Assembly: GCA_041495285.1 (NCBI GenBank)
Contig: JBGQCJ010000001.1
Span: 73,182-137,181 of the forward strand
Reading direction: 5' to 3'
DNA length: 64,000 nt
Origin: Verrucomicrobiia bacterium
Lineage (GTDB): Bacteria; Verrucomicrobiota; Verrucomicrobiia; Palsa-1439
A program made the translations under genes and the position numbers. Shown piece by piece: positions 1 through 23,313 of this stretch; within the stretch, counting starts at the first letter, position 1, and each line of letters begins with the position of its first letter. The notes beneath the pieces were generated by a model. It saw only the letters and a program-made list of their open reading frames with translations, was not told the origin of the DNA and did not search any database.

Positions 1-13
1 CGGCACGCCCATC

Positions 14-595
14 GTGGCGGTGCCGGTACGGTGTAGCTACGCGCCCGAACAAGTGCGCCGGTCGCACTTCCGTCCCATCGCTGACTTCGTACGGATCACG
101 ACGATGAACATCGGGCTGGTGTTGCAATCGTGGCTCGTGCCGGCGGAGTTACGACGGACGTGGTCGCTGGGTGGACACAAGACACTCCGGGAAGCTATCC
201 GTGAGTTCTTCACCGAACACGCCCACGAACCGGCGCGACTGGCCGGTGCAGTCGGCTTGGGATTGTTTTGTGGCATCGCGCCGATCTGGGGTTTCCAAAT
301 GCTCGCGACCGCGACGCTGGCGCATTTGTGGCGGTTGAACAAGGCTATTGCGTTGCTCGCCAGTAATGTTTCCATGCCGGCGCTCACGCCGTTCATCGTG
401 TACGGCGGGTTGGTGCTCGGGCATTGGTTGCTAACGGGACAACGGCTGGAGTTAGGGCCGCATGACATCACGTGGGCGCACACGTTTGAGTATTTCTGGA
501 GCTGGTTTTTCGGGAGCGTAGTGTTGGCGGTAATCGTGGCGGCGCTGGGGACGATCGTGACGTATGGCGTGGCGCGGTTGGTGAAGCGAAAATGA
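14..595 (+). CDS. DUF2062-like small membrane protein; start uncertain (GTG at 14 or ATG near 104); frame is open to window edge
   Basis: The 193-aa ORF has hydrophobic helices and a '...LNKAIALLASNVSMPALTPFIVYGG...' segment typical of DUF2062. DUF2062 proteins are common members of aryl-polyene clusters. Its stop overlaps the next start (ATGA). Confidence 0.55.
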   Translation: MAVPVRCSYAPEQVRRSHFRPIADFVRITTMNIGLVLQSWLVPAELRRTWSLGGHKTLREAIREFFTEHAHEPARLAGAVGLGLFCGIAPIWGFQMLATATLAHLWRLNKAIALLASNVSMPALTPFIVYGGLVLGHWLLTGQRLELGPHDITWAHTFEYFWSWFFGSVVLAVIVAALGTIVTYGVARLVKRK

Positions 596-3500
596 AACCC
601 GATCTCTACACACGATTTTATCTGTGGCTCGTGGCGCATCGGCGCTGGGTGCTGGGCCTCACGCTGTTGATCGCGGCGGTGAGTGTCGTCATTTCGCTGC
701 GCATTGATATGGACGAGGATCTTCTCGCCATGCTGCCGGAACGCGATCCGCTCGTGGACGAGTATCGCTACGTGCTGCGCAAATTCCGCCAGATTGACCG
801 GGTCTATCTCGACGTGGGCATCACGACCGGAGATGCCGACACGCTGGCGGCAGCCGCCGGCGCGGTTTTCTCCGCGCTATCAACGAATACCGCCTACGTG
901 CGGATCATGTATCGCTTCGAGGTCAGCGGACAGCAGAAGGTGATTCAGTACCTGACCGGCGCGTTGCCGAATCTGTTCACTGACGAGGATGCCCGGTCGC
1001 TCGCGCCGAAACTCGAGCCCGCCGCTGTGCGCGATTATCTCACCGCGATGCGCCGCAAACTGGCCGGGCCGGAAGGCATGGTGCTCAAGGATGTCGTCGC
1101 CGCCGATCCGGTCGGCATGAGCGGATTGGTCGTGGCCAAAGTGTTGCCGCTGCAAACTGGGTTCGGCGACACGCAAATCGTGGACGGTCGCATCACGAGT
1201 GGCGATGGCCGGCACGTTCTGCTCATGGCCGAGCCGAAATTCCGCTCATCAAATTCCCGCGACAGCGAAGCGCTCGTGAAAGACTTATTGCGGACGGCGC
1301 GCGAAGTGGAAGGTCATTTCCCCGGCGTTCACGTCGCCATCACCGGTGGGCATCGGATGACGGTGGACAACGCGACGATCATCAAGGCCGACGCGACGCG
1401 CTGCATTTCCCTCGGGATGGGAGCAATGTTGATTCTGTGTCTGACAGCATTTCGGCGGCGCTGGCTGGCCGTCCTGGCATTTTTGCCATCGTTATTCGGC
1501 ACGCTCATCGCGGGCGTGGTGCTCGCGCTCTACTGGCCGCACCTCTCCGCCATCGCGACCGGCTTCGCCAGCATCGCCATCGGCATCACGGTGGATTACG
1601 CGATCTATATTATTTATCACCTCGACAACGCCGCGAGTTTTGACCGCGAGTCCGTGGGCCGGCATCTGGGGCGGCTGGTGTTGCCAATCAGCATCGGTGC
1701 GCTGACGACTATCGCAGCGTTCGTGGTCATGGCGACTTCGCCGATGCACGGCTACCAGCAACTGGGCGTGTTTGGCGCGGTTGGCGTCGTGTTTTCGGCG
1801 GCGTTCGCACTTGTGATCCTGCCGTTGCTCGTACCGATGGAGAAAACTACCGGGCAACCGCCGCTGTGGCTGACACAGTTGATGGAGAAATTTCAAACCT
1901 GGCAATCGAACTGGCGATCCTGCGTGCTGATCGCCATGCTCGTGATGACTGTCGTGACCGCGTTCGGTGTACGACGGCTGCGGTTTGAGGGCGACGTCGC
2001 CAAGCTGAACGGCATCACCGAATCCACGCGGAGCGATGAGGCGTTGATCAACCAAACTTGGGGCAGTGCGCTCGGAATGACATTGGTCGTGGCGCGCGGA
2101 GCAACACCGGAGGACGCCTTGGCGCTAAATGATCGCGCCGCGCAAGCGCTCGCCCACGATCCGAATGTGGCTGCGGTGTATTCGCTCGCAGCGGTTTGTC
2201 CATCGAAGGCGACGCAGGTGGCGAACATCCGGCGCTGGCGCGAATTTTGGACGCCGGCACGACGTATGACATTGCGCGAGACGTTGCAGCAGGTCGGCGG
2301 CGAACTTGGTTTTCGCGCCGAAGCATTCGCGAAGTTTTGGCAAAGCGTCGAGGGCGACCCGGCAATGCTGACGCTGGAGGCTTTTCGCGGCACGCCATTG
2401 GATCAGGCATTGAGTGAGCGCGTCGCGCTGGGCGCGGACGACAACGCGGTGAGTACGTTGGTCAAATTGAAGGATCGCGCGAACGTCGGCAAACTGCGGC
2501 AGGCGTTGCCCGGCCTGATTGTGCTCGACCACAAGGCATTCGCCGATCATATCGCCGGGCTGGCGAAAAGCGGACTAAGCCAGTTCGCGTTGTGGACGGC
2601 CATCGTCGTGGCCGCGATCTTGTATCTGACGCTCGCGTCCATTGAACTGGCCGCGGTGACGCTGCTGCCGCTGGCGTTCGGTTTGTTGTGGACGTTCGGG
2701 GCGATGGGCTGGTTGGGATTGAAGATTGACCTGATGAACAGCGTGTTCGTCATCTTCATCATCGGCGTCGGCGAGGATTACAGCGTGTTCCTCGTTACAA
2801 ACAAATTGGACGAATGGCGCGGACGACCGCAACGGACCGCGGCCACCACTGCGTCGGTATTGATCTCCGCCTCGACGACGATCTTTGGCTTCGGCGTGCT
2901 GGTGCTGGCCAATCACCCGGTGTTTTTCTCGATGGGCACGACGGTGTTGCTCGGCATGAGTTTCGCATTCCTCGCCACCCTGATTTTGACACCGCTGTGC
3001 ATGGACTTATTGCTGTTCGCCGACCCGCCGCGCGGCGCACCCCGGTGGTGGCATTTACTCGGCACGCTGTGGGGCGGAACACACCTCTTCCTCGGTCAAC
3101 TGGGTCTGTGGGTGTCTCGTCCGTTTGTCTCGCGCGATCGTTCCCGGCAGATGACGCAAGGGGCAACGCGCTTATTGGTGAATTGGTTTCCGTTCGGCAA
3201 ACTGGATTGGATCGATACCGGTGCCGAAACATTTCAGAAGCCAGCCATCCTCATCAGCAATCATCAATCCGCCGTGGACGTGCTCATCATCAAAGCACTG
3301 TCCGGCAACATCCGCATGACGATCAAGAAACGCGTCTGGGACACGCCGATCCTCGGCCTGACCGCGAAGATGAACGGTGACTTGTTAGTCGACAACGAAT
3401 CCGACGCCACCTTGGCCCGCTGCCGGCAAGCCGTGACGGAGGGCGCGAGTGTCCACTTCTTCGTCGAAGGTACGCGCTCGCGCACCGGCGACCTGCAACG

Positions 3501-4419
3501 TTTTCGCCTTGGCGCGTTTCAACTGGCCAGCGAATCCCGGCAAGACGTGTTACCGGTCTTGCTCTGCGACACCAATACCGCCATGCCGCGCGACGCGTAC
3601 TGGTTCGAGTTGTACCGGGCTGTGGTGCGCGCGTTGCCGCGCGTGACGCCACAGACTTTCGACTACAACCTCGGCGCGCGCGCCTTGATGAAACATTGCG
3701 AGGCGCTGATGCACGACGCATTGCAGACCGAATTGGATCGCGTGAACTCGTCGCCGGTATTGCGCCGCAAAGTAGCACGGCTCTACCGGTATCAAGGCAA
3801 GTGGGTCGAGCAATTCGTTTACTGGAAGATGCGCACCGACCCGTTCTTTGCGGTGCTCGACAAGACCGTGCCGCGTCAGGGTTTCATCCTCGATCTCGGT
3901 TGCGGCTATGGCCTGGCGAGTCACTGGCTAGTCCATAGCAATCTCGACCGGCAACTGCTTGGCGTGGATTACGACGCCGATAAAATTCGCACCGCCCAAC
4001 GCACCGCCCCGCGCCACGACCGGCTCCGCTTCGAGCAAGCCGACCTGCTCACGTGGGATTATCTTGCCTGCGACGCCATTCTCTTATTCGACGTGCTCCA
4101 CTACTGGACGCCCGATAAACAAGAACTCATCCTCACCAAAGCCCGGCAAGCGTTGCGCCCGGGCGGACGCTTGATTCTCCGCGATGCCGCACGCGCCGAA
4201 ACGAAGGCGCACGGGAACGTCGCGTTCTGGGAGAAACTCGCGACCGGCATCGGCCACAACAAGACCGTCGAGGGACTGCATTTCCAGAGCGAGCCGGAAC
4301 TGCGCGCCGCGTTGCAGCGTGCCGGCTTCGAGGACATCCAACTCGTGCCGTCCGCCGGCAACGATTCCAACATCCTGCTCACCGCGTCGGTCGCTGCGCC
4401 GCAATGCTCTGGCGGATAA
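592..4419 (+). CDS. Three-domain fusion: MMPL/RND-type exporter (about 12 TM) + lysophospholipid acyltransferase domain (HX4D 'NHQSAVD', 'FVEGTRS') + class I SAM methyltransferase domain ('ILDLGCGYG')
   Basis: Single 1275-aa ORF. The N-terminal ~830 aa carry two hydrophobic bundles separated by a periplasmic loop (MMPL/RND architecture). Residues ~880-1050 carry PlsC-type acyltransferase motifs. The C-terminal ~220 aa have the SAM-binding motif I. Confidence 0.75.
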   Translation: MKPDLYTRFYLWLVAHRRWVLGLTLLIAAVSVVISLRIDMDEDLLAMLPERDPLVDEYRYVLRKFRQIDRVYLDVGITTGDADTLAAAAGAVFSALSTNTAYVRIMYRFEVSGQQKVIQYLTGALPNLFTDEDARSLAPKLEPAAVRDYLTAMRRKLAGPEGMVLKDVVAADPVGMSGLVVAKVLPLQTGFGDTQIVDGRITSGDGRHVLLMAEPKFRSSNSRDSEALVKDLLRTAREVEGHFPGVHVAITGGHRMTVDNATIIKADATRCISLGMGAMLILCLTAFRRRWLAVLAFLPSLFGTLIAGVVLALYWPHLSAIATGFASIAIGITVDYAIYIIYHLDNAASFDRESVGRHLGRLVLPISIGALTTIAAFVVMATSPMHGYQQLGVFGAVGVVFSAAFALVILPLLVPMEKTTGQPPLWLTQLMEKFQTWQSNWRSCVLIAMLVMTVVTAFGVRRLRFEGDVAKLNGITESTRSDEALINQTWGSALGMTLVVARGATPEDALALNDRAAQALAHDPNVAAVYSLAAVCPSKATQVANIRRWREFWTPARRMTLRETLQQVGGELGFRAEAFAKFWQSVEGDPAMLTLEAFRGTPLDQALSERVALGADDNAVSTLVKLKDRANVGKLRQALPGLIVLDHKAFADHIAGLAKSGLSQFALWTAIVVAAILYLTLASIELAAVTLLPLAFGLLWTFGAMGWLGLKIDLMNSVFVIFIIGVGEDYSVFLVTNKLDEWRGRPQRTAATTASVLISASTTIFGFGVLVLANHPVFFSMGTTVLLGMSFAFLATLILTPLCMDLLLFADPPRGAPRWWHLLGTLWGGTHLFLGQLGLWVSRPFVSRDRSRQMTQGATRLLVNWFPFGKLDWIDTGAETFQKPAILISNHQSAVDVLIIKALSGNIRMTIKKRVWDTPILGLTAKMNGDLLVDNESDATLARCRQAVTEGASVHFFVEGTRSRTGDLQRFRLGAFQLASESRQDVLPVLLCDTNTAMPRDAYWFELYRAVVRALPRVTPQTFDYNLGARALMKHCEALMHDALQTELDRVNSSPVLRRKVARLYRYQGKWVEQFVYWKMRTDPFFAVLDKTVPRQGFILDLGCGYGLASHWLVHSNLDRQLLGVDYDADKIRTAQRTAPRHDRLRFEQADLLTWDYLACDAILLFDVLHYWTPDKQELILTKARQALRPGGRLILRDAARAETKAHGNVAFWEKLATGIGHNKTVEGLHFQSEPELRAALQRAGFEDIQLVPSAGNDSNILLTASVAAPQCSGG

Positions 4420-5044
4420 GTTCGAGGAACTCTTCGCGAGGCAGGGGCAGATAGGTGTCCGTCGCAATCGGTTCGCCGACGTGTACCTCGACCTTGCGCA
4501 GCCCCGTGATGAGGTGAAACCGTCCGGTCTTGGTAGAGACAAGCTGCATGTTCTCGATGAACACCGGCACAATTGGCACGCGCGCTCGCTGCGCAATGTA
4601 GTACAGGCCGGGCTGGCACGGGGCAACATGCACGCCGTCGCCGCGCGTGCCCTCGGGAAAAACCACCAACTGGAACCGGTCACTGAGACGGCCAAACGCC
4701 TCCAACTCACGGATGCGATCGGGATTGATTTTTCCTCGTTCCAGCAAGAAGCCGATCCGGCTGCTCAACGCTCGTCTGATCCAGGAAACCTGCCAAACGG
4801 CTTTGTCCCCCAGCACCAGAATCGGATAGCACCCGCACCGCCAAAACAACGCGCCCAACAGGATCGTGTCCAGCAGACTGACGTGATTGGCCACAAACAG
4901 ATGACGCTGCTCACGACGCAACCGTTCGAGGCCATGCGTCCGTCGCAGGTACGCCAGCGCAAACGTGTAATAGCTGCTCGCACCCAGCAGCGCTTGAATC
5001 AACACCAAAGCCCGCGATATCTGGCTTGAATTTGTTGGCTCCAT
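4379..5044 (-). CDS. 1-acyl-sn-glycerol-3-phosphate (lysophospholipid) acyltransferase family protein
   Basis: 221 aa with HX4D motif 'NHVSLLD' and 'FPEGTRG' motif of PlsC-like acyltransferases. Its 3' end is convergent with and overlaps the 592..4419 gene by about 40 nt. Confidence 0.75.
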   Translation of the reverse strand: MEPTNSSQISRALVLIQALLGASSYYTFALAYLRRTHGLERLRREQRHLFVANHVSLLDTILLGALFWRCGCYPILVLGDKAVWQVSWIRRALSSRIGFLLERGKINPDRIRELEAFGRLSDRFQLVVFPEGTRGDGVHVAPCQPGLYYIAQRARVPIVPVFIENMQLVSTKTGRFHLITGLRKVEVHVGEPIATDTYLPLPREEFLELIRQSIAAQRPTR

Positions 5045-5048: not shown

Positions 5049-6707
5049 TCAGTTCGAGTGGCCGGCTTGTTCTAACCACTTTTCCAGTTCGCGCTTCTCT
5101 TTCAGAAACGCTGGGTGCGCGGCCAGCGCCGCCGCAAACGCGCGCGCCGCCTCCTGACGCTGACCGAGCGCCAACAGAGCACGACCTCGCAACGCCGCAT
5201 TCTGGTAGAAACCGGGGTTCAACGCTTCCGCCTTGTCCGCAAGCGTCAGCGCGGACGGCGCATCGTTGCTCTTCAAAGCGCGATGGCCATCGTCCAGACA
5301 TTGCTTGGCCTGCTTCGCCCGCTCGAATTCACCCGATGCCAGTGTCGCGTCGGGCGACACGGTTCGGGCGGGCAATTCGTGATCGAAATCCTGCACATCG
5401 AACGCGACGAACTTGCCAATCTGGTGCGGCGGCGAAGCCGCCCAAAAAATGCCGTCAGTCAAATCCATCACCGTGGCGTGTGTGGCGATGAACGCGTTCA
5501 GCGAGGCGCGGTGGCCGTTGCCGGCAAACGCGCCGCCGGACAGGTTGCGGTCGCGGAGCAATTCAGCAGCGTGCGGAGCGTCGATTGTGCCGCGCGCACC
5601 CTGAAGCAGTTCTGTCATGCGCGTGAAGCGTGAAACCGACGTGGCTTCGTCAATGTAAACCTTGTTCCGCTCGGCATCCTTCAAGCCGGAAGTTTGGAAA
5701 TGATTCGCGCAAACGATGGTGTCGCCTTCTGGTTCGCGCACCTGCGTTACGTCGGGTGTTTTTTCCACGACCACAAGTTTTCCGTCCGCCCGGCTGCCCA
5801 CCAGCCAGAGTGTTGAGACAAACACCTTGGCGCGGCGGATGATTTCCAGCGCCTCGGTGAGGTTGTGCGCCTTTTGCAAAACATCGCGCGCCACCATCGC
5901 CACGGGGGTGGCGATTTCGCCTGGCAAACTGGACGGCGCGCCGTTGATCGTGACGGAGACGCCCGCGCGGTTCATTCCCGAAACCACTCCCGCCATGCTG
6001 GCCCACGATAGTGAAATGAACGGAATGCCGTCATCCGGTTCGCACATGATGACGACACGGTCGCGGCTGAAAACCTCGGCGGCTTCCCAATCGAAGTTGC
6101 GCCCGGTGATCAGATGTCCGACGGCCGTCGCGCCGCCCCACGCGCCGAACGCGGTGCAGCCCGCGCGCGCGACGAGCGGGTTGTCAATCATCATATAGGA
6201 AACGTCGTGCGCGGCGTGGTAGTTGAGCATCCGGTTATAGAAACTGCCGAGTTCCGGGTGAACGTCCGGGCAGCCGAGAATCACGCCATAAATCTGCTGG
6301 CGATCTTCCAGCGACACGAAATCGCCCAGATGCCGGTTGCGATAGATCACATACGCCCTGAGCACGTTCAGTTTCCACTGTTGCGACACGTAGCCGTGGA
6401 TCATTTCTAGGAATTCATTCTCCAGCGTGTGCATCTGCTCCTGCAACAACACGCCCGACGCGTAACCCATCTCGAACGGGCTGCCTTTGAGCCGCACGAC
6501 CAGCAATCCCTCGCGTCGGCTCGCCCACGATTTGCCGAGCCACGTTTTCCCATCGTGCGATTCCGGCTTGAGTTGCATGATCGCCACGTCGCGCGGCAGC
6601 GGCGGCGGCTTGGCCGTCCAATGCCGCAACAAGCACACCGCCGCGATCCAGGCGATCAGCCCAAGCAAAATCGCCCCAAACAGAATTCTCTTGAGCCATT
6701 TCTTCAC
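5049..6707 (-). CDS. Peptidase C45 / acyl-CoA:6-aminopenicillanic-acid acyltransferase family protein with C-terminal TPR repeats; N-terminal signal/TM
   Basis: 552 aa. The central region has the 'GCTAF' self-processing Cys context of the C45/IAT-like family. The C-terminal 'ALNPGFYQNAALRGRALLALGQRQEAARAFAAALAAHP' is TPR-like. It has a hydrophobic N-terminus. Confidence 0.55.
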   Translation of the reverse strand: MKKWLKRILFGAILLGLIAWIAAVCLLRHWTAKPPPLPRDVAIMQLKPESHDGKTWLGKSWASRREGLLVVRLKGSPFEMGYASGVLLQEQMHTLENEFLEMIHGYVSQQWKLNVLRAYVIYRNRHLGDFVSLEDRQQIYGVILGCPDVHPELGSFYNRMLNYHAAHDVSYMMIDNPLVARAGCTAFGAWGGATAVGHLITGRNFDWEAAEVFSRDRVVIMCEPDDGIPFISLSWASMAGVVSGMNRAGVSVTINGAPSSLPGEIATPVAMVARDVLQKAHNLTEALEIIRRAKVFVSTLWLVGSRADGKLVVVEKTPDVTQVREPEGDTIVCANHFQTSGLKDAERNKVYIDEATSVSRFTRMTELLQGARGTIDAPHAAELLRDRNLSGGAFAGNGHRASLNAFIATHATVMDLTDGIFWAASPPHQIGKFVAFDVQDFDHELPARTVSPDATLASGEFERAKQAKQCLDDGHRALKSNDAPSALTLADKAEALNPGFYQNAALRGRALLALGQRQEAARAFAAALAAHPAFLKEKRELEKWLEQAGHSN

Positions 6708-11147: not shown

Positions 11148-11404
11148 TAGGAAGATCGCTTGGCTTGAATGAAGGCCGCCAGCGCGCGCACCGAGCTGAA
11201 CGCGGGACGCCCCTCTTCGATGTCTTTGATCACGATGCCGTAATGTTTCTCCAGCATCACGACCAACTCCAGCGCATCGATCGAATCCAAACCCAGTCCC
11301 GCGCCGAACAACGGCGCATCGTCGTCAATCTGACCCGGGGTGATGTCCTGCAGTTTCAATGACTCAATGATTCTCGTCTTCAATTCGTTGGCTAACACGT
11401 CCAT
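11147..11404 (-). CDS. Acyl carrier protein
   Basis: 85 aa with 'GLGLDSIDALELV', a phosphopantetheine attachment Ser in a DSL-like motif. Confidence 0.8.
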   Translation of the reverse strand: MDVLANELKTRIIESLKLQDITPGQIDDDAPLFGAGLGLDSIDALELVVMLEKHYGIVIKDIEEGRPAFSSVRALAAFIQAKRSS

Positions 11405-14477: not shown

Positions 14478-14478
14478 A

Positions 14479-17892: not shown

Positions 17893-19395
17893 CTACGGTA
17901 GACTCGTCGCGAAGCGTTTCCCGTCGCGGCGACACAAGATCTGAATCACGTGCCGCCCGGAGTAGAGGCAGGGCGGCACGCCGCCGCCAGGCACGACCCA
18001 TTGCCCGGCCATGTAAAAATTGTCCAGCCCCGGCAGCGTCTTCCGAAAAATCGCGCGGAGCGCCTTGGGCGTGGGCGCCCAGCCCATGAACGCGCCTTCG
18101 TGGTTCAACGTGTAGCGCCACGTCGTGTGCGGTGTCGCCATGTCGGTGAGTTCGACTTGCGAGGTGATGCCCGGATAATGCGGTTCAAGTCGCGCGAGCG
18201 CCTCGGTGCACATCCGTTTTTTTTCGGCTTCGTAACGCGCCCGGTCCGGGAGCAGATCGTTCCAGTATTTCCAGTCGGTGATGAACAAGACTTGAAAGAC
18301 CGTCCGGCCCGGCGGCGAAAATTTGTCGCTGTAGTTGAAGACGCGGATGGGAAATCCGTCAATGGTCACGTTGCCGACCTTCATCGGTTCTTTGAGCAGG
18401 AGAAATCGCAAAGGCGGTTCGCCGGCAAATTCACGGCGCAAGCCGAAGCTCAAAGTGACGAGCGGACGAAGCTGTTTCCAGTTTTGATAGCGATCCTTGA
18501 TCGTCTTGCCCACATACTTTCCGCCGAGCAGATTGAAAATCGTGCTCGTGCCGTCGCCCGCCGAAACCACGACATCCGCGCGTTGTTCCGTGCCATTTTC
18601 CAGACGCACGCCGACGGCACGGTCGTTTTCGACGATGATTTCCTTCACCGTGGAATCGAACGCGATTTCGCCGCCAAGATTCTGGTAGCGTTCCATCAGG
18701 CTGTCCACAAAATCGTGGCAACTGCCCGCCAGCAATCCCAACTGCCGGTTCGCCAGCAGCGACAGCATGAGCAGGTTGAACCACATCGGCACTTCCGGCA
18801 AAAACAGGTGCGTCAGCATCCGGCGCAACGCGGCATTCTGGAAGCGTTCCGAGAATTCCTTGTTCGGCAGATTGTAAGCCCCGCCGAAATAGCGCAGCGT
18901 GTGGCGCAGATGCCACAACTGTTTCAACGGCCCGAAAATCCCCGCCAGTTCCACCGGCGTTTCCATCAGGCTAAACATGTCGGTGCGCTGGAACGACCGC
19001 ACGCCCGCGATGAAATCGTCAATCGCCCGCGCGTCTTCCGGCGCGAGCGATTTCAAATCGCGCGCCAGTTTGTCCATGTCGCCGGTGAACGCGACGTGCT
19101 GGCCGCTGATCTCATCCGTGAAATCACAATAGTTCGTGAGGTCGGGATAAGTGCGGTTGTGAAAGATTCCCAGCTCCCGGTAAATCTCATGGCACGCCAC
19201 GCCGGGACGATGTCCCATCAAATAATGGATGCCGCCGTCAATGAGGTAATCCCCGTGCTTCCACGCCTTCGCCACGCCGCCCGGCTCGCTATGGTGTTCG
19301 AAGATATGGCTCCGATAGCCGTTCATCCGCGCATAGCAGCCGGTGGACAGCCCGGCCAGTCCGGCTCCGATGATGATGATGGATTTCTCGGCCAT
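17893..19395 (-). CDS. FAD-dependent oxidoreductase, phytoene-desaturase (CrtI)/amine-oxidase family
   Basis: 'KSIIIIGAGLAGLSTG' dinucleotide-binding motif. Length and C-terminal pattern match the CrtI-like family. It is divergent from the ammonia-lyase gene. Confidence 0.7.
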   Translation of the reverse strand: MAEKSIIIIGAGLAGLSTGCYARMNGYRSHIFEHHSEPGGVAKAWKHGDYLIDGGIHYLMGHRPGVACHEIYRELGIFHNRTYPDLTNYCDFTDEISGQHVAFTGDMDKLARDLKSLAPEDARAIDDFIAGVRSFQRTDMFSLMETPVELAGIFGPLKQLWHLRHTLRYFGGAYNLPNKEFSERFQNAALRRMLTHLFLPEVPMWFNLLMLSLLANRQLGLLAGSCHDFVDSLMERYQNLGGEIAFDSTVKEIIVENDRAVGVRLENGTEQRADVVVSAGDGTSTIFNLLGGKYVGKTIKDRYQNWKQLRPLVTLSFGLRREFAGEPPLRFLLLKEPMKVGNVTIDGFPIRVFNYSDKFSPPGRTVFQVLFITDWKYWNDLLPDRARYEAEKKRMCTEALARLEPHYPGITSQVELTDMATPHTTWRYTLNHEGAFMGWAPTPKALRAIFRKTLPGLDNFYMAGQWVVPGGGVPPCLYSGRHVIQILCRRDGKRFATSLP

Positions 19396-19476
19396 GAATG
19401 AAGCGCAAGTCTTATTGCCGGGCACTTGCTTGTTCAAGTCGTTTGTTGTAGAACCGGCATTCGATTAGCAAGCTAC

Positions 19477-21045
19477 ATGATCGCCTTCAACGGACATAAT
19501 CTCACGATTGACGATGTCTGGCGGGTTGCCGGTCTGCAGTCTCCGTGTGCGCTCGCCGACAGCGCTCGCCCGCAAATCCGCAAGAGTCGCGCCTTTGTTG
19601 AAACCGTCGCCGCGCAACCGCGCGCCATTTACGGAATCAATACCGGCTTCGGCCCGTTGAGCGGGTTTCGCGTTCCCCCGGAAGAACTGGCGCAACACCA
19701 AGTCAATCTCCTCAGCCATCTCTGCGTCGGCCAGGGCGCGTTGTTTTCTCCGGCCGAAACGCGCGCGATCATGCTGGCCCGCGCCAACACGCTGGCACGC
19801 GGCTATTCCGGCATCCGGGAAGAGACGATCGAACTGCTCCTCGCGGCGCTCCGGCACGATGTGTTACCGGAGATTCCGAGTGAAGGTTCGGTCGGCGCGA
19901 GCGGCGATCTCGTGCCGTTGGCGCACATGGCCGGGTTGTTGGTCGGAAACGGCTTTGCGCGCGTGAACGGTCAACGCTTGCCCGCCATCGAGGCGTTGCG
20001 CTCTGTCGGGCTGAAGCCAATCGAATTGCAGAGCAAGGAAGGTCTGGCGCTCGTCAACGGCACATCGGTGATGACCGGGCTGGCGGCGTTGGCGGCCCAC
20101 GAAGCGTCTGCGCTGCTCGGTTGGATGGAATTGTTGACGGCGTGCTTGTTTCAAGTCTTGCAGGGCGAGCCGGAGGCGTTGTGCGAGCAGGCGCAAAAAG
20201 CGCGCGGGTTTCGCGGTCAATTTGTCTCCGCGGAACGCATCGCCAACCATTTGCGGACTCATCCGGATTTTGCCCGGCGCATTGACGAGCATCAATGGGG
20301 TTCGCTGGCCAAGCCGGTGGATCCCGGCGCCGAAATCCAAGACCCGTACTCGCTGCGGTGCGCGCCGCAGATTCTCGGGGCGTTCCAGGAAGCGCACTGG
20401 CACGTCGAGGCGGTCATCACGCGCGAACTGAATGCGAGCACCGACAATCCGTTGATCTTCGCCGAGACGGAAACGGTGATTCACTGCGGCAATTTCTACG
20501 GCCAACAAATCGCGATGGTCAGCGACTACGAACGGATGGGCTTGATCAAACTCGCGCTGTTAGCCGACCGGCAAATCGAGCGGCTGCTCAACTGGCGTTA
20601 CAGTCGCGGCCTGCCGCCGTTACTGGCCGGGGGCGAACCCGGTTTGAATTCCGGCTTTGCCGGCGCGCAACTGCTGGCCACGTCACTCGCCGCCGAAGCG
20701 CGCTTGCTCGGCACGCCGGCCTCCATCCAGACGATCCCCACCAACGCGAACAATCAGGATGTCGTCAGCATGGGTTGCATCGCGGCGAAGATGACGCGCA
20801 CGACGTTGCCATTGCTCTGGAAGCTGACGGCCATCGAAGCGCTCGCGTTGGCGCAGGCCGCCGACTTGCGTAACCGTCCGGACGTGATGGGCGGCGATTA
20901 CCGGAAACTTTACGACCTCGTACGCGACGTGTCGCCAACACTGACGACCGACCGGCCACTCGCCGAAGACATCGAACGCGTGACCGCGCTGCTTCAATCC
21001 GAGTCGGCCCAACAACAATGCTTACCGGCCCGCGATGCAGACTGA
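19477..21045 (+). CDS. Aromatic amino-acid ammonia-lyase (HAL/TAL/PAL family, MIO cofactor)
   Basis: 'GSVGASGDLVPLAHM' contains the Ala-Ser-Gly triad that forms the MIO prosthetic group. The whole length matches the HAL/TAL fold. It is adjacent to polyene genes, as for flexirubin TAL (FlxA). Confidence 0.85.
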   Translation: MIAFNGHNLTIDDVWRVAGLQSPCALADSARPQIRKSRAFVETVAAQPRAIYGINTGFGPLSGFRVPPEELAQHQVNLLSHLCVGQGALFSPAETRAIMLARANTLARGYSGIREETIELLLAALRHDVLPEIPSEGSVGASGDLVPLAHMAGLLVGNGFARVNGQRLPAIEALRSVGLKPIELQSKEGLALVNGTSVMTGLAALAAHEASALLGWMELLTACLFQVLQGEPEALCEQAQKARGFRGQFVSAERIANHLRTHPDFARRIDEHQWGSLAKPVDPGAEIQDPYSLRCAPQILGAFQEAHWHVEAVITRELNASTDNPLIFAETETVIHCGNFYGQQIAMVSDYERMGLIKLALLADRQIERLLNWRYSRGLPPLLAGGEPGLNSGFAGAQLLATSLAAEARLLGTPASIQTIPTNANNQDVVSMGCIAAKMTRTTLPLLWKLTAIEALALAQAADLRNRPDVMGGDYRKLYDLVRDVSPTLTTDRPLAEDIERVTALLQSESAQQQCLPARDAD

Positions 21046-22249
21046 CGTTGATGTTTTGATCATTGGAGCCGGCCCCGCCGGCTCAACCGCGGCGGCGCTT
21101 CTCCACCGCGAAGGCTTCCGGCTCCTCGTCGTCGAGAAGCAACACTTTCCCCGGTTTGTCATCGGTGAAAGTCTCCTACCCCACAGCATGGACTTGTTGA
21201 AGGAGGCCGGGCTGTTGGAAAATGTCGAGCAGCAACATTTCATGCACAAGGGCGGCGCGGTTTTTTTGCGCGGCCTGGAGACGTGCAACTTTGATTTCTC
21301 CAGCCAGTTCACCGCCGGCTGGACGTATACGTATCAAGTGCCTCGCGCGGACTTTGACAAGACGCTCGCCGACGCCGTGGCCGCCAATGGCGTGGAAATC
21401 TTGTACGGACAAAGCGTGACCGCCATCAACTTCGCGCCAACGCACGCCACCGTGACTGTCGAAGGGCGACCGGTGACGGCGCATTTCGTTCTCGATTGCA
21501 GTGGCTACGGGCGCGTTTTGCCGCGCTTGCTCGAATTAGAAAAGCCCTCACACTTTCCGGTGCGCGAAGCCTTGTTCACTCACGTGACCGGCGACCATCG
21601 CCTGGCGGGCCGCGAAGAAGGCAAGATTTGGATTTGCATGCATCCCGGCGGCGCATGGATTTGGATCATCCCCTTCTCGGACGGTCGCACAAGCGTCGGC
21701 GCCGTGGCCGAGCCGGAGTTTTTCAACCGGTATCCCAGCTTGCGAGACATCCTTGCATCCGACCCCAATGCCGCGCCGCGATTGGCGGAGACGAAGTTCT
21801 TGTTCGAGCCGCAACGGATTACCGGCTACGCGTGCTCGGTCAAACAACTCTACGGCCCGCAATTCGCGCTCGTCGGCAATGCGACGGAATTCCTCGATCC
21901 GATTTTTAGTTCAGGCGTCACCCTCGCGCTGGCGTCGGCGAACCGCGCGGCCCGGTTGCTGACCCGGCATCTGCGTGGCGAAACGGTGAATTGGCAGACG
22001 GAGTACGCCGACCATCTGATGCAAGGCATCAACACGTTTCGCGCCTACGTGACCGCGTGGTACGACGGCAACTTGCCGGAGATTTTCTTCGCGGCTCAAA
22101 AGAACCCGGTCATCATGAAACAAATCTGCTCGGTGCTGGCCGGTTACGTGTGGGACACATCCAATCCATACGTCTCCCAACCGGAGCGGGCGTTGCCGCT
22201 GCTGTCAAAAATCATCCGGGGCCAAGCCCGGCACGGCGCGACTCGATGA
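21035..22249 (+). CDS. Flavin-dependent halogenase (tryptophan-halogenase-like fold)
   Basis: 'VLIIGAGPAGSTAA' FAD motif plus the 'GGAWIWIIPF' WxWxIP signature of flavin-dependent halogenases. Overlaps the ammonia-lyase stop by 11 nt and the next gene start by 4 nt (ATGA). Confidence 0.75.
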   Translation: MQTDVDVLIIGAGPAGSTAAALLHREGFRLLVVEKQHFPRFVIGESLLPHSMDLLKEAGLLENVEQQHFMHKGGAVFLRGLETCNFDFSSQFTAGWTYTYQVPRADFDKTLADAVAANGVEILYGQSVTAINFAPTHATVTVEGRPVTAHFVLDCSGYGRVLPRLLELEKPSHFPVREALFTHVTGDHRLAGREEGKIWICMHPGGAWIWIIPFSDGRTSVGAVAEPEFFNRYPSLRDILASDPNAAPRLAETKFLFEPQRITGYACSVKQLYGPQFALVGNATEFLDPIFSSGVTLALASANRAARLLTRHLRGETVNWQTEYADHLMQGINTFRAYVTAWYDGNLPEIFFAAQKNPVIMKQICSVLAGYVWDTSNPYVSQPERALPLLSKIIRGQARHGATR

Positions 22250-23313
22250 AGTATTTTCGCAACGATTCGAAGACGGCTTACGAAGCGAAATCCGAGGCGC
22301 AAAGAATCGCCTTCGCTCCCATGGTGTTTCAGGCCTGCCGCTTCCTGCGCGACTCGGGAATACTGGAACTGGTCCAACAAAGCGGCGACGCAGGAATGAC
22401 CTTGCCGGAAGTGGTTGCCAAGGTCGGACTGCCGCGCTACGGAGTCAAAGTCCTCCTGGAATCGGGTCTGGGCAGCGGGTTGTTTTGCCTCAATGACGAT
22501 CGTTTTACTCTGACCAAGTTGGGCCACTTTATCCTTCGCGATCCCATGACGCGCGTGAATATGGATGTCGTGCATGACGTGTGTTATCGCGGTCTGTTCG
22601 ATCTTGATAAGGCCGTCAAAGAGGGCAAACCGGCAGGCCTAAAAACTTTGGGCGATTGGAAAACTTTTTACGAGGGGTTTTCCTCGTTACCGGCGCATGT
22701 GCGGGAAAGCTGGTTGGCCTTCGATCATTATTATTCTGACATTGCCTTTCCCGCCGCGTTGCCCTTGGTGTTTGCCGATCATCCCCAGCGGTTGCTGGAT
22801 GTCGGCGGCAATACCGGCAAATGGGCGCTTCAGTGCGCGAAGTTCGATCCCGACGTGCAGATCACGATTGCCGATTTGCCGCAACAACTGGAGTTTGCCC
22901 GGGAAGCAATCCGGAAGAATGACCTGGAGAACCGGGTCGATTTTCTTGCGGTCGATCTTCTGGATGAATCAAAACCGTTTCCCGGCGGTTATGATGCGAT
23001 CTGGATGAGCCAGTTCCTCGATTGTTTTTCGGAGAAGGAGATCGTCTCGATTCTGCAGCGCGCCGCCCGGGCCATGAAGGCCGGCAGCACGTTGTATATT
23101 CTCGAACTCTATTGGGACCGCCAGCCAAACGAAACTGCGGCCTTCTGTCTGCAACAGACTTCTCTTTATTTCGCCTGCATCGCCAATGGCAACAGCCAGA
23201 TGTACCACTCCGCCGACATGCTGCGGTGTCTGGATGAAAGTGGCCTCAAAGTGATTGAGGAACGCGACGAGGTGGGTCTGTATCACACCTTGTTCAAGTG
23301 CCGGAAAGCGTGA
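22246..23313 (+). CDS. Class I SAM-dependent O-methyltransferase (with N-terminal dimerisation domain)
   Basis: 'LLDVGGNTGKWA' motif I, with the motif II/III pattern of plant/Streptomyces-type O-MTs. The start is set at ATG 22246 (ATGA overlap with halogenase stop). The upstream 85 aa of the 440-aa track ORF is out-of-frame overlap. Confidence 0.75.
   Translation: MKYFRNDSKTAYEAKSEAQRIAFAPMVFQACRFLRDSGILELVQQSGDAGMTLPEVVAKVGLPRYGVKVLLESGLGSGLFCLNDDRFTLTKLGHFILRDPMTRVNMDVVHDVCYRGLFDLDKAVKEGKPAGLKTLGDWKTFYEGFSSLPAHVRESWLAFDHYYSDIAFPAALPLVFADHPQRLLDVGGNTGKWALQCAKFDPDVQITIADLPQQLEFAREAIRKNDLENRVDFLAVDLLDESKPFPGGYDAIWMSQFLDCFSEKEIVSILQRAARAMKAGSTLYILELYWDRQPNETAAFCLQQTSLYFACIANGNSQMYHSADMLRCLDESGLKVIEERDEVGLYHTLFKCRKA

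What the first reader, a model, noticed from the sequence alone, without database searches (positions are those of the whole stretch)
1..23313. Aryl-polyene/flexirubin-like lipid-pigment cluster with ammonia-lyase, halogenase and O-methyltransferase tailoring operon
Positions 14-15204 hold the near-complete APE gene set.
- Core genes: two KS, a KS-CLF, a CLF-like protein, ACP, KR, two hotdog DH, two LPLAT plus one LpxL-like acyltransferase, a LolA-like protein, DUF3261, DUF2062 and an MMPL exporter.
- 4-8 kb further on, a tightly overlapped operon encodes an MIO ammonia-lyase (ASG triad), an FAD halogenase (WxWxIP) and an O-MT, with a divergent CrtI-like oxidoreductase.
This predicts a (hydroxy)cinnamate-primed, halogenated and O-methylated aryl polyene attached to an outer-membrane lipid by the acyltransferases. 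Xanthomonadin- and flexirubin-like chemistry is combined here in one locus.
No DarAB (dialkylresorcinol) genes are present.
No adenylating/CoA-ligase gene is visible; it may lie upstream of position 1, since the first gene's frame is open to the window edge.
Basis: partly seen in the sequence, partly recalled or inferred. Interest (0 to 1): 0.7.

Follow-up and report, generated by a model that had tools for sequence, protein, structure and literature searches.

The report
Flexirubin-type pigment gene cluster in Verrucomicrobia
This is a real gene cluster for a membrane-bound yellow-orange aryl-polyene pigment. It matches the flexirubin cluster of Bacteroidota almost gene for gene, but it sits in an uncultured Verrucomicrobiota lineage and carries a few extra genes of that lineage, so it is a solid but only moderately novel find.

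Summary
Window 1-15204 carries a type-II-FAS-like aryl-polyene core, and 17893-23313 carries a divergent CrtI-like gene plus an overlapping lyase-halogenase-methyltransferase operon.

The "xanthomonadin plus flexirubin hybrid" reading is not needed. Lyase, halogenase, methyltransferase, polysaccharide deacetylase, C45 acyltransferase, LolA, GT2, CrtI-like reductase and even the 1275-aa exporter+acyltransferase+methyltransferase fusion are all annotated components of the Chitinophaga pinensis flxA-flxY cluster, and part of the gene order is the same.

DUF3261 is not supported.

The cluster is larger than reported. Downstream, past an inserted restriction-modification island, lie a second halogenase and another methyltransferase (to about 31196).

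The host is an uncultured Verrucomicrobiota subdivision-3 bacterium. The core block (upstream module through LpxL) keeps its gene order in about 20 of the 32 related species loci long enough to judge.

No darAB genes are in the window, but in C. pinensis they are unlinked too, so a dialkylresorcinol partner is not excluded.

Verdict: new variant of a known kind, moderate interest.

The parts
2..595 (+). C-terminal 197 aa of a 374-aa GT2 glycosyltransferase-DUF2062 fusion, the counterpart of FlxT. The N-terminus lies upstream of the window.
   Evidence: Pfam DUF2062 at E 2e-22. The full gene in sibling contig L004 (8880-10004) has GT2+DUF2062 and shows 0 mismatches over the 591 shared nt.
592..4419 (+). 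1275-aa fusion of MMPL/RND exporter, LPLAT acyltransferase (HQSAVD) and SAM methyltransferase (ILDLGCGYG). It is the counterpart of FlxU.
   Evidence: Pfam and NCBIfam hits and motifs. All 120 listed relatives match over 99-100% of the query, and it is found in 76 Verrucomicrobiota MAG loci. [quoted passage not shown]
4379..5044 (-). Stand-alone LPLAT (PlsC-type) acyltransferase with HVSLLD motif.
   Evidence: Pfam Acyltransferase at E 1.6e-18. Syntenic in 34 loci.
5049..6707 (-). C45 / acyl-CoA:6-APA acyltransferase-like Ntn enzyme with the GCTAF nucleophile motif.
   Evidence: NCBIfam C45_proenzyme at 187.8 bits, above the cutoff of 85. Pfam AAT. flxW and Fjoh_1076 carry the same annotation.
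6704..7078 (-). ApeI-like hotdog dehydratase, in the FlxS position.
   Evidence: Pfam ApeI-like at 38.9 bits, above the cutoff of 28.5. FabZ equivalog at 38 bits, far below the cutoff of 155.
7075..7536 (-). Conserved lipoprotein of unknown family, in the FlxR/ApeN position. DUF3261 membership is not shown.
   Evidence: Lipobox VVGCATT. No Pfam hit. 2 of 20 orthologues hit DUF3261 weakly at E 0.044. Syntenic in 27 loci.
7526..8209 (-). LolA-like periplasmic carrier, the counterpart of FlxQ and ApeL.
   Evidence: Pfam LolA at E 8.7e-14. Best NCBIfam hit is LolA2_flexi at 81 bits, below the cutoff of 125.
8206..8973 (-). NodB-type polysaccharide deacetylase with TFDDG and HSYAH motifs.
   Evidence: Pfam Polysacc_deac_1 at E 3e-35. 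Motifs. flxP and Fjoh_1086 carry the same annotation.
8955..11147 (-). KS-CLF fusion of 730 aa. The N-terminal half is a KS with Cys-His-His (ACSSS, HGTGT, GHALAASG). The C-terminal half is a Ketoacyl-synt_2 chain-length-factor-like domain. It is the counterpart of FlxN+FlxO.
   Evidence: Pfam hits. FabF equivalog at 377 bits, below the cutoff of 494. Motifs.
11147..11404 (-). Acyl carrier protein with a DSI serine, in the FlxM position.
   Evidence: Pfam PP-binding. NF006617 at 81.6 bits, above the cutoff of 70. Housekeeping AcpP model at 30 bits, below the cutoff of 70.
11411..11998 (-). Small 195-aa condensing-enzyme-like protein without the Cys or His motifs (CLF-like), in the FlxL position.
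   Evidence: Weak Pfam ketoacyl-synt hit at E 2.3e-5. No active-site motifs found.
11991..13127 (-). Ketosynthase of 378 aa with ACVSG, HGTGT and GHTLGAAG motifs.
   Evidence: Pfam KS N and C domains. FabF equivalog at 216 bits, below the cutoff of 494.
13120..13530 (-). ApeP-like hotdog dehydratase, in the FlxF position.
   Evidence: Precomputed Pfam hit to PF22817 ApeP-like for the identical gene. FabZ models far below their cutoffs.
13515..14477 (-). LpxL/HtrB-type lipid A-family acyltransferase, the counterpart of FlxE.
   Evidence: Pfam Lip_A_acyltrans at E 3.4e-24.
14479..15204 (-). FabG-like ketoreductase, the counterpart of FlxB and ApeQ.
   Evidence: Best NCBIfam hit is FlxB at 317.5 bits, below the cutoff of 340. 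It passes a generic FabG model.
17243..17821 (+). Secreted HEAT-repeat protein. It is conserved between the core and tailoring blocks in relatives. Its role is unknown.
   Evidence: Pfam HEAT_2. Present in L016, L049, L081 and L082.
17893..19395 (-). CrtI/amine-oxidase-family flavoprotein, divergent from the lyase operon. [quoted passage not shown]
   Evidence: Pfam Amino_oxidase and NCBIfam crtI_fam, below cutoff. flxV and Fjoh_1077 annotations. Also next to the lyase in L083.
19477..21045 (+). MIO aromatic amino-acid ammonia-lyase, predicted to be a tyrosine ammonia-lyase. It is the counterpart of FlxA.
   Evidence: Pfam Lyase_aromatic at E 2.5e-160. It carries GASGD, and has H-L where PpHAL has S82-H83. 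The motif [H/S/Y]HL recurs in about 100 of the 120 closest relatives, of which 16 did not match the search pattern. Closest solved structures are tyrosine aminomutase and RsTAL. It misses the HutH cutoff.
21035..22249 (+). Flavin-dependent halogenase with GAGPAG, K72 and WIWIIP. It is the counterpart of FlxK.
   Evidence: Pfam Trp_halogenase. 52% identical to PDB 3nix from Cytophaga hutchinsonii at E 1e-130. Next best matches are PltA, CmlS and CndH-type halogenases.
22246..23313 (+). FlxJ-family SAM methyltransferase (Methyltransf_2 fold). Whether it methylates carbon or oxygen is not established.
   Evidence: NCBIfam FlxJ_fam_MTase at 530.3 bits, just below the cutoff of 560. Pfam hits.
26147..27697 (-). 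516-aa protein with a signal peptide and no family hit. It lies next to the second halogenase here and in relative L083. Tentatively part of the cluster.
   Evidence: No Pfam or NCBIfam hit. A 59%-identical homologue is in L083. The single-sequence structure model was unusable at pLDDT 28.
27712..28971 (-). Second flavin-dependent halogenase-like protein with WSWRIP, 30% identical to the first.
   Evidence: Precomputed Pfam Trp_halogenase. NCBIfam hits and motifs. Conserved after the methyltransferase in L081, L082 and L083.
30381..31196 (-). Second stand-alone SAM methyltransferase (Methyltransf_11/25 type).
   Evidence: Conserved next to the tailoring genes in L016, L049, L081 and L082.

Best explanation
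This is the Verrucomicrobiota (subdivision 3, Limisphaerales/Pedosphaera-like) version of the flexirubin (flx) branch of the aryl-polyene gene-cluster family.

Proposed pathway:
1. The MIO lyase deaminates tyrosine to 4-coumarate.
2. The FlxY-like ligase just upstream of the window activates it.
3. The KS, KS-CLF fusion and small CLF-like protein extend it with malonyl units on the dedicated ACP. The FabG-like ketoreductase and the two Ape-type dehydratases leave each unit unsaturated, giving an aryl-polyene acid.
4. One or two flavin halogenases and the FlxJ-type methyltransferase (plus a second methyltransferase) decorate the phenol ring.
5. The GT2-DUF2062 protein, NodB deacetylase, C45 acyltransferase, two LPLAT domains and the LpxL-like enzyme attach the chromophore to a lipid or glycolipid anchor.
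6. The FlxU-type RND exporter, the LolA-like carrier and the lipoprotein take it to the outer membrane.

A lineage-specific module upstream probably adds or transfers a further acyl group. It consists of an AMP-ligase, an ACP, a stand-alone condensation-fold protein with an invariant HxxxD, and an FAD oxidoreductase.

What is shown: gene content, catalytic motifs, synteny, and correspondence to the published flx annotation tables.
What is inferred: every substrate, the order of steps, the anchor and the final structure.
For: Domain content and motifs.

Flexirubin-named NCBIfam models are the best hit for four proteins, and a flexirubin model also matches a fifth:
- ketoreductase: FlxB, 317 bits
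- LolA-like: LolA2_flexi, 81 bits
- ligase: FlxY, 430 bits
- methyltransferase: FlxJ, 530 bits
- lyase: FlxA, 394 bits (fourth-ranked hit, behind two HAL models and the tyrosine aminomutase model)

The halogenase is 52% identical to a Cytophaga hutchinsonii protein, PDB 3nix.

The published tables for C. pinensis flxA-Y and F. johnsoniae Fjoh_1075-1110 list the same functions, including the deacetylase, C45, CrtI-like reductase, GT2 and the exporter+acyltransferase+methyltransferase fusion. The F. johnsoniae order DH / hypothetical / LolA / deacetylase / CLF / KS / ACP / CLF-like / KS matches window genes 6704-13127 (PMC3992019). [quoted passage not shown]

Lyase specificity: H-L at the HAL S82-H83 position, NQDVVS, and closest solved relatives specific for tyrosine.

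Synteny: 20 of the 32 related loci of at least 20 kb keep the order from the upstream module through the core to LpxL or the locus edge. The lyase-halogenase-methyltransferase trio is kept in all 5 relatives inspected and lies next to the core in 4 of them.

Upstream module: present in 32-43 loci. The condensation fold is supported by a profile hit to PDB 8s6l at E 2e-4, a model with pTM 0.83, and a Foldseek match at E 1e-20 with TM 0.73.
Against: - All five flexirubin equivalog models score below their trusted cutoffs, so these are diverged counterparts, not certified equivalogs.
- No thioesterase (FlxH), PPTase (FlxX), third KS/ACP pair (FlxC/D) or dar gene is in the 40 kb examined.
- In one relative (L083) the tailoring module is on a different contig from the core. 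In L016 and L049 the LPLAT-to-ACP block is missing next to FlxU, so the parts can be separated.
- Motif 1 does not predict lyase specificity reliably. FlxA itself has a HAL-like motif and is nevertheless a TAL. An aminomutase activity cannot be excluded from sequence.
- There is no chemistry, no expression data and no cultured host. All 76 related loci are MAGs.
Confidence: 0.8

Rival explanations
1. It makes a genuine flexirubin. The aryl-polyene acid is esterified to a dialkylresorcinol made by darA/darB genes located elsewhere in the genome, as in Chitinophaga pinensis.
For: The gene-for-gene correspondence to flx includes the C45 enzyme FlxW, which was proposed to join the polyene to the resorcinol. 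In C. pinensis the dar cluster (Cpin_6843-6852) is far from flx (Cpin_1853-1877), so absence from this window says little.
Against: No KAS III or DarA-like gene is found in the window ORFs of at least 180 aa that were scanned, in the 9.4 kb upstream, or among the genes listed for the three lyase-centred relatives L081-L083. The FlxU-centred loci were compared only with this cluster's own proteins, which would not detect dar genes. A conserved extra acyl-transfer module occupies the cluster instead. Flexirubins are regarded as typical of Bacteroidota.
Confidence: 0.25
2. The lyase-halogenase-methyltransferase block is an independent small pathway that merely neighbours an aryl-polyene core primed by another acid through the upstream AMP-ligase/ACP pair, in the manner of ApeH/ApeE. 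The small pathway might make, for example, a halogenated hydroxycinnamate.
For: The two blocks are 2-4 kb apart and on opposite strands. In relative L083 the tailoring block is unlinked from the core. An ApeH-like AMP-ligase plus ACP exists upstream. In E. coli, ApeH loads 4-hydroxybenzoate directly onto the ACP.
Against: The trio sits beside the core in 4 of 5 relatives and on the same contig in at least 5 genomes. In both Bacteroidota clusters the lyase and halogenase are cluster members, and tyrosine labelling of flexirubin is established. A FlxY-type coumarate ligase sits directly in front of the GT2-exporter genes.
Confidence: 0.1
3. It is a xanthomonadin-type or hybrid cluster: a brominated, O-methylated aryl polyene primed by 3- or 4-hydroxybenzoate.
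For: Halogenase and methyltransferase genes are present. Halogenation is the tailoring step usually cited for xanthomonadin.
Against: No XanB2-type chorismatase or any hydroxybenzoate-forming enzyme is found in the 40 kb examined. A tyrosine-type lyase and a FlxY-type ligase are present instead. Halogenase and methyltransferase are standard flx genes, flxK and flxJ.
Confidence: 0.04
4. These are ordinary fatty-acid synthesis paralogues plus a histidine-catabolic HAL, so there is no pigment cluster.
For: The ketoreductase passes a generic FabG model. The lyase's highest NCBIfam bit scores are to HAL models.
Against: The KS, dehydratase and ACP proteins all miss the FabF, FabZ and AcpP cutoffs, and the dehydratases hit the Ape-specific families. 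The lyase misses the HutH cutoff, lacks HAL's S-H, and has no hut neighbours. The 30-kb synteny with export and lipid-attachment genes argues against it.
Confidence: 0.01

Closest known systems
Flexirubin (flx) clusters of Chitinophaga pinensis (flxA-flxY) and Flavobacterium johnsoniae (Fjoh_1075-1110), Bacteroidota
   Same: Nearly the whole parts list is shared:
- TAL, FabG-like ketoreductase, KS/CLF sets, ACP, two hotdog dehydratases, LpxL-like acyltransferase
- FlxJ methyltransferase and FlxK halogenase
- NodB deacetylase, LolA, small hypothetical lipoprotein, GT2
- exporter+acyltransferase+methyltransferase fusion (FlxU)
- CrtI-like reductase (FlxV), C45 enzyme (FlxW), F390-synthetase-type 4-coumarate ligase (FlxY)

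The local order DH-hypothetical-LolA-deacetylase-CLF-KS-ACP-CLF-like-KS is the same, and the lyase is adjacent to the halogenase as in F. johnsoniae.
   Different: - The phylum is different (Verrucomicrobiota).
- All flexirubin equivalog HMMs score below cutoff.
- KS and CLF are fused.
- No thioesterase, PPTase, ABC transporter or dar genes are nearby.
- There is an extra conserved module of AMP-ligase, ACP, stand-alone condensation-fold protein and FAD oxidoreductase.
- There are also a second halogenase, a second methyltransferase and a HEAT-repeat protein.
- The tailoring genes form their own block.
E. coli CFT073 / Xenorhabdus doucetiae ape cluster, which makes aryl-polyene lipids (APELs)
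   Same: - Type-II-FAS-like core with KS, CLF, ACP, ApeI/ApeP-type dehydratases and FabG-like ketoreductase.
- LPLAT and glycosyltransferase for lipid attachment.
- RND (MMPL) exporter, LolA-like carrier and a lipoprotein.
- The product is expected in the outer membrane. The APEL structure (APE on GalNAc-phosphate-glycerol) shows what such attachment genes can build.
   Different: - The ape clusters are primed by 4-hydroxybenzoate through ApeH and have no ammonia-lyase.
- They have no halogenase, NodB deacetylase, C45 enzyme or CrtI-like gene.
- Their exporter is not fused to acyltransferase and methyltransferase domains.
Xanthomonadin cluster of Xanthomonas
   Same: An aryl-polyene core, a halogenated and methylated head group, and outer-membrane localisation.
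   Different: Xanthomonadin is primed by 3-hydroxybenzoate from XanB2 (my own knowledge, and the He et al. reference cited). No such enzyme is here, and a tyrosine-type lyase and a FlxY-type ligase are present instead.
FAAL/ACP/PapA5-type acyl transfer and stand-alone NRPS condensation domains. This comparison applies to the upstream module only.
   Same: An adenylating enzyme, a carrier protein and a free-standing condensation-fold protein with a conserved HxxxD. The profile matches PDB 8s6l, PapA5 (1q9j) and NRPS C domains. The model superposes on 8s6l at TM 0.73.
   Different: Sequence identity is only 11-18%. The motif is AHxxxD rather than HHxxxDG. The family carries no Pfam domain and only 'hypothetical' names, and is seen essentially only in Verrucomicrobiota. 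The two best structural matches are described as dehydrating variants, so ester or amide formation is not certain.

Membership tests
Aryl-polyene (APE) biosynthetic gene cluster family | Core set used to call ape clusters: KS (apeO/R), CLF (apeC), ACP (apeE/F), DH (apeI/P), KR (apeQ) and RND transporter (apeM), as listed in the Fig. 1 legend of 10.1101/2020.12.19.423268. | tested here: met
   KS, KS-CLF fusion, CLF-like protein, ACP, ApeI-like and ApeP-like dehydratases, FabG-like ketoreductase and MMPL domain are all present in 592-15204.
Aryl-polyene (APE) biosynthetic gene cluster family | The condensing, dehydratase and carrier proteins are distinct from the housekeeping FabF, FabZ and AcpP. 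| tested here: met
   FabF equivalog at 377 and 216 bits against a cutoff of 494. FabZ at 34-38 bits against cutoffs of 113-155. AcpP at 30 bits against 70. The Ape-specific dehydratase families are hit.
Aryl-polyene (APE) biosynthetic gene cluster family | LolB-like DUF3261 lipoprotein (ApeN). | tested here: inconclusive
   A lipoprotein is in the right position, but it has no Pfam hit. 2 of 20 orthologues hit DUF3261 at E 0.044.
Flexirubin (flx) cluster | Tyrosine ammonia-lyase (FlxA) supplying 4-coumarate. | tested here: inconclusive
   An MIO lyase with a TAL-type H-L motif is present, and its closest solved relatives are tyrosine-specific. However, the FlxA equivalog scores 394 bits against a cutoff of 700, and activity was not assayed.
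Flexirubin (flx) cluster | F390-synthetase-type 4-coumarate-CoA ligase (FlxY). | tested here: inconclusive
   It is not in the window. In the 99.8%-identical sibling contig L004 (7678-8883), FlxY is the top hit at 430 bits against a cutoff of 520.
Flexirubin (flx) cluster | Accessory set FlxJ (MT), FlxK (halogenase), FlxP (deacetylase), FlxQ (LolA), FlxT (GT2), FlxU (exporter+AT+MT fusion), FlxV (CrtI-like) and FlxW (C45). | tested here: met
   Every one has a counterpart with the same domain make-up, and part of the order is shared. This is a match at the level of domains and synteny. No direct sequence comparison with the Bacteroidota proteins was possible.
Flexirubin (flx) cluster | Dialkylresorcinol genes darA and darB, and a polyene-resorcinol ester product. 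| tested here: not met
   None in the window ORFs scanned, the 9.4 kb upstream or the genes listed for relatives L081-L083. This does not settle the matter, because dar is unlinked in C. pinensis and a genome-wide search was not possible with these tools.
Flexirubin (flx) cluster | Orange pigment with a reversible KOH colour shift, located in the outer membrane. | not testable with these tools
   This needs cells or heterologous expression. All related loci are MAGs.
Xanthomonadin cluster | XanB2-type chorismatase supplying 3- or 4-hydroxybenzoate as the starter. | tested here: not met
   No such domain is found in any ORF scanned across the upstream 9.4 kb and window 1-31 kb.
Histidine utilisation (hut) HAL | HutH equivalog score, the S-H motif, and hutU/hutI neighbours. 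| tested here: not met
   473 bits against a cutoff of 539. H-L instead of S82-H83. The neighbours are a halogenase, a methyltransferase and a CrtI-like gene.

The most novel reading that the evidence does not exclude
Verrucomicrobiota subdivision 3 bacteria, abundant but almost uncultured in soil and freshwater, make a dialkylresorcinol-free flexirubin analogue. The head group would be di-halogenated and methylated. The lipid partner would be installed by a lineage-specific trio of AMP-ligase, carrier protein and stand-alone condensation-fold enzyme, giving a new class of aryl-polyene lipid. If so, flexirubin-type pigments would not be a marker exclusive to Bacteroidota.
Probability: 0.3. Interest if true: 0.55.

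Novelty: new variant of a known kind. Interest (0 to 1): 0.38.

Why it matters
[quoted passage not shown] Their full lipid products are known for very few organisms.

Flexirubin-type pigments are used as a chemotaxonomic trait of Bacteroidota. A complete flx-type cluster conserved across dozens of Verrucomicrobiota species shows that this pathway reaches beyond that phylum.

It also offers a natural variant for working out how the chromophore is joined to its membrane anchor. The variant has a fused KS-CLF, two halogenases, an extra condensation-fold acyl-transfer module and no linked dar genes.

On the practical side, the fused FlxU-type exporter is a convenient single-gene marker for finding these clusters in metagenomes.

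Tried and rejected
1. **Looking up window proteins from the 42-kb and 57-kb regions** to get precomputed annotation. Both exact look-ups failed, probably because of different start calls. I used Pfam instead.

2. **Single-sequence PDB search with the upstream 405-aa protein.** It found nothing. A profile, and then a structure model, were needed.

3. **Structure prediction of the 516-aa protein next to the second halogenase,** without an alignment. The model was unusable at pLDDT 28.5. Its outer-membrane-barrel character rests only on my reading of the sequence.

4. **Searching for direct or inverted repeats flanking the restriction-modification island** at 23.4-26.1 kb. Only short, chance-level matches were found, so the insertion is inferred from GC content and from comparison with relatives.

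5. **DUF3261 for the 7075-7536 lipoprotein.** It is not supported for the window protein and only faintly for 2 of 20 orthologues.

6. **Literature searches for flexirubin or aryl-polyene clusters described in Verrucomicrobiota.** They returned only generic antiSMASH counts.

7. **The Cimermancic 2014 paper** is not held in the library.

8. **Not possible with these tools:** direct sequence comparison with C. pinensis or F. johnsoniae Flx proteins, and any search for DarA or DarB.

Full report
**What is in the window**

On the plus strand:
- The window opens inside a DUF2062 domain (2-595).
- A 1275-aa ORF follows (592-4419) that fuses an MMPL/RND exporter, an LPLAT acyltransferase and a SAM methyltransferase.

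On the minus strand, reading from 15204 down:
- FabG-like ketoreductase
- LpxL-like acyltransferase
- ApeP-like dehydratase
- KS
- 195-aa CLF-like protein
- ACP
- 730-aa KS-CLF fusion
- NodB-type polysaccharide deacetylase
- LolA-like protein
- small lipoprotein
- ApeI-like dehydratase
- 552-aa C45/acyl-CoA:6-APA-acyltransferase-like enzyme
- stand-alone LPLAT

After three small genes of unknown role (two lipoproteins and a secreted HEAT-repeat protein) comes the tailoring block:
- a CrtI-like flavoprotein on the minus strand (17893-19395)
- an MIO lyase (19477-21045), a flavin halogenase (21035-22249) and a methyltransferase (22246-23313) on the plus strand, overlapping by 11 and 4 nt

Catalytic motifs are intact throughout:
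- KS Cys-His-His in both KS domains, absent from the CLF-like parts
- ACP DSI
- HX4D in both LPLATs
- TFDDG and HSYAH in the deacetylase
- GCTAF in the C45 enzyme
- GASGD in the lyase
- GAGPAG, K72 and WIWIIP in the halogenase
- SAM motif I in all three methyltransferase domains

**Not housekeeping genes**

- The KS proteins score 377 and 216 bits against the FabF equivalog (cutoff 494).
- The dehydratases score 34-38 bits against FabZ models (cutoffs 113-155), but hit Pfam ApeI-like and ApeP-like.
- The ACP misses the AcpP model.
- The lyase misses the HutH cutoff (473 against 539).
- In a direct alignment with Pseudomonas putida HAL, the lyase has His-Leu where HAL has Ser82-His83. From my knowledge of Watts et al. 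and Louie et al. 2006, H-L is the tyrosine ammonia-lyase pattern, F-L the PAL pattern and S-H the HAL pattern.
- About 100 of the 120 closest relatives carry [H/S/Y]-H-L together with GASGDL and NQDVVSMG. The other 16 did not match my search pattern and were not inspected.
- The nearest solved structures are tyrosine aminomutase and Rhodobacter TAL, ahead of HAL.
- One caution: the flexirubin paper shows that FlxA has a HAL-like motif 1 yet is a TAL with 1000-fold selectivity. The motif is therefore supportive, not decisive.

**Source and true extent**

Exact-protein look-ups place the window in JGI metagenome 3300053058 and in a sibling MAG, GCA_041488115.1. The sibling contig L004 has 0 mismatches over window 1-591 and 11 over the next 5510 nt, so it shows what lies upstream.

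The first window gene is the tail of a 374-aa GT2-DUF2062 fusion. In front of it sits a 401-aa ligase whose best NCBIfam hit is FlxY, the flexirubin 4-coumarate-CoA ligase (430 bits, cutoff 520). Further upstream lie:
- a FadD-like AMP-ligase
- an 88-aa ACP
- a 405-aa protein
- a PF12831 FAD oxidoreductase
- a non-conserved 290-aa protein

Downstream, 23473-26064 is a low-GC pair (0.47-0.52, against about 0.60 for its neighbours). It consists of DUF6602 and a DNA methylase fused to an Mrr-type nuclease domain.

Beyond that pair lie a 516-aa signal-peptide protein, a second halogenase-like gene (WSWRIP, 30% identical to the first), a CPA2 antiporter and a second methyltransferase, reaching 31196.

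In relatives without the restriction-modification pair, the second halogenase and methyltransferase follow the FlxJ-type methyltransferase closely: directly in L082, and after one 822-aa gene in L081. The cluster therefore spans roughly -7.4 kb to +31.2 kb in window coordinates.

**Host and conservation**

All 120 listed relatives of the 1275-aa fusion match over 99-100% of its length at 63-85% identity. Almost all that carry a name are Verrucomicrobiota, Verrucomicrobiae or Limisphaerales MAGs.

A scan of one genome per species found 76 loci. All are MAGs of Verrucomicrobiota subdivision 3, although several carry obviously wrong titles.

A tblastn comparison of all cluster proteins against these loci gave the following:
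- The order AMP-ligase, ACP, 405-aa protein, FAD oxidoreductase, FlxY-like ligase, GT2-DUF2062, fusion | LPLAT, C45, DH, lipoprotein, LolA, deacetylase, KS-CLF, ACP, CLF-like, KS, DH, LpxL is kept in 20 of the 32 loci of at least 20 kb, as far as each locus reaches.
- Individual genes are detected in 14 to 59 of the 76 loci. Low counts mostly reflect genes lying beyond the 10-kb flank or on short contigs.

The lyase is even better conserved, at 77-88% identity. Judging from matching contig lengths, it shares a contig with the fusion in at least five assemblies.

Neighbourhoods of three lyase homologues, plus two loci where the lyase falls inside the flank, all show lyase-halogenase-methyltransferase. 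Usually a second halogenase and a second methyltransferase follow. In four of the five the block is adjacent to the core. In one MAG it is on another contig, with the halogenase and methyltransferase fused.

**What it corresponds to**

The supplementary tables of Schoner et al. 2014 (PMC3992019) annotate C. pinensis flxA-flxY as:
- lyase, SDR, KS, ACP, lipid-A acyltransferase, dehydratase-like, hypothetical, thioesterase, KS
- methyltransferase (flxJ), tryptophan halogenase (flxK)
- condensing enzyme, ACP, KS, condensing enzyme
- polysaccharide deacetylase (flxP), LolA (flxQ), hypothetical (flxR), dehydratase-like (flxS), GT2 (flxT)
[quoted passage not shown] Every accessory gene that looked unusual here, including the triple fusion, is thus a standard flx component.

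The F. johnsoniae order Fjoh_1081-1093 is collinear with window 6704-13127, and its lyase and halogenase are adjacent, as here.

Independent support:
- Flexirubin-named NCBIfam models are the top hit for the ketoreductase, LolA-like protein, ligase and methyltransferase, and the FlxA model also matches the lyase as its fourth-ranked hit. All are below their trusted cutoffs.
- The halogenase is 52% identical to a Cytophaga hutchinsonii protein, PDB 3nix.

Hence the 'xanthomonadin + flexirubin' hybrid idea is unnecessary. There is no XanB2-type enzyme anywhere in the 40 kb.

**What differs from the described flx clusters**

1. The phylum is different.
2. KS and CLF are fused.
3. No thioesterase, PPTase, ABC transporter or dar genes are nearby.
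4. There are a second halogenase and a second methyltransferase.
5. There is a conserved HEAT-repeat protein.
6. There is an upstream module.

On the upstream module, the 405-aa protein family has an invariant W-x-H-x-x-M-D-A (HxxxD). Further evidence on this family:
- Its profile hits PDB 8s6l (E 2e-4), PapA5 and NRPS condensation domains, with the histidine motifs aligned.
- 15 of 26 members weakly hit Pfam Condensation.
- An AlphaFold model (pLDDT 77.6, pTM 0.83) superposes on 8s6l at TM 0.73 with E 1e-20, followed by dozens of NRPS C domains.
- In the protein database the family carries no Pfam domain and mostly 'hypothetical' names. Nearly all named members are from Verrucomicrobiota.

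An adenylating enzyme, a carrier protein and a free-standing C-fold enzyme together form the logic of FAAL/PapA5-type acyl transfer. I infer that the module adds or transfers an acyl group. The substrate is unknown, and the two best structural matches are described as dehydrating variants.

**Mechanism**

The proposed steps are: tyrosine to 4-coumarate (lyase); activation (FlxY-like ligase); iterative elongation on the ACP by KS/CLF with ketoreductase and dehydratases; ring halogenation and methylation; attachment to a lipid; export.

Only the first two activities have been demonstrated, and only for the C. pinensis homologues.

For attachment, the solved aryl-polyene lipid of Xenorhabdus (APE esterified to GalNAc-phosphate-glycerol carrying two acyl chains) shows what a GT2 plus LPLAT set can build. 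A NodB deacetylase together with a C45 enzyme, whose family transfers acyl groups to an amine, would fit removal of the N-acetyl group from a hexosamine followed by re-acylation. This is my inference only. Schoner et al. instead proposed that FlxW joins the polyene to the resorcinol.

Whether the FlxJ-type enzyme methylates carbon or oxygen cannot be read from the sequence. Flexirubin and E. coli APE head groups are described as methylated.

**The dialkylresorcinol question**

No KAS III or DarA-like gene is in the window ORFs scanned, in the upstream 9.4 kb, or among the genes listed for the three lyase-centred relatives L081-L083. The FlxU-centred loci were compared only with this cluster's own proteins, so they say nothing about dar genes.

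However, the C. pinensis dar genes (Cpin_6843-6852) are far from flx (Cpin_1853-1877). Absence in cis therefore proves nothing, and I could not search whole genomes for them.

**Verdict**

It is best described as the Verrucomicrobiota subdivision-3 form of the flexirubin cluster, larger than reported and with lineage-specific additions.

I found no description of it in the searchable literature beyond generic 'arylpolyene' counts.

I rate the novelty as a new variant of a known kind and the interest as moderate.

Noticed in passing
window 23473-26064: A low-GC pair (0.47-0.52, against about 0.60 around it) sits between the FlxJ-type methyltransferase and the second-halogenase block. It consists of a DUF6602 protein and a DNA N6/N4 methylase fused to an Mrr-type nuclease domain. 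The pair is absent at this position in relatives L016, L081 and L082, so it looks like a restriction-modification island inserted into the pigment cluster. No flanking repeats were found.
   Followed up: partly
window 47080-49290: A single 736-aa ORF combines a low-molecular-weight phosphotyrosine phosphatase, ribose-5-phosphate isomerase B and serine hydroxymethyltransferase domains. This is an unusual triple fusion if the ORF is real.
   Followed up: no
window 49693-53548: A type I restriction-modification module: an N6 methylase with an HSDR_N domain, a specificity subunit, and a 222-aa protein with no family. It lies in a lower-GC stretch (0.54-0.55).
   Followed up: no
L083 11568-13874 (MAG GCA_022072455.1): In this relative the halogenase and the FlxJ-type methyltransferase are fused into one 768-aa protein. 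The whole tailoring block (CrtI-like, lyase, fusion, second halogenase, antiporter, 535-aa protein) lies on a different contig from the core cluster.
   Followed up: partly
L016 and L049, 13825-14400: In two relatives the block from LPLAT to ACP (eight genes) is missing between the exporter fusion and the CLF-like gene. As a result the lyase operon lies within 5 kb of the exporter. The missing genes may be elsewhere in those genomes or may have been lost.
   Followed up: no
loci L009, L017, L020, L022, L029, L032, L051, L057: Contigs that clearly belong to Verrucomicrobiota carry record titles such as 'uncultured Bifidobacterium sp.' or 'Bifidobacteriaceae'. They share the same 24-kb synteny at 61-73% identity. 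Others are titled Akkermansia, Methylomirabilota or Sulfotelmatobacter. These public MAG labels look wrong.
   Followed up: no
window 29033-30277; L083 15166-16467: A CPA2-family cation/proton antiporter sits next to the second halogenase in both the window and one distant relative. The link to the cluster, if any, is unexplained.
   Followed up: no
window 57092-59201: A polyprenyl synthetase gene is followed by a protein with many HEAT repeats. A different, secreted HEAT-repeat protein is conserved inside the pigment cluster (17243-17821). No role is known for either.
   Followed up: no
window 43706-45784: The PurD (GAR synthetase) domains begin only at residue 282 of the longest ORF, which overlaps another 362-aa ORF (43464-44552). 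The true start is probably much further downstream.
   Followed up: no
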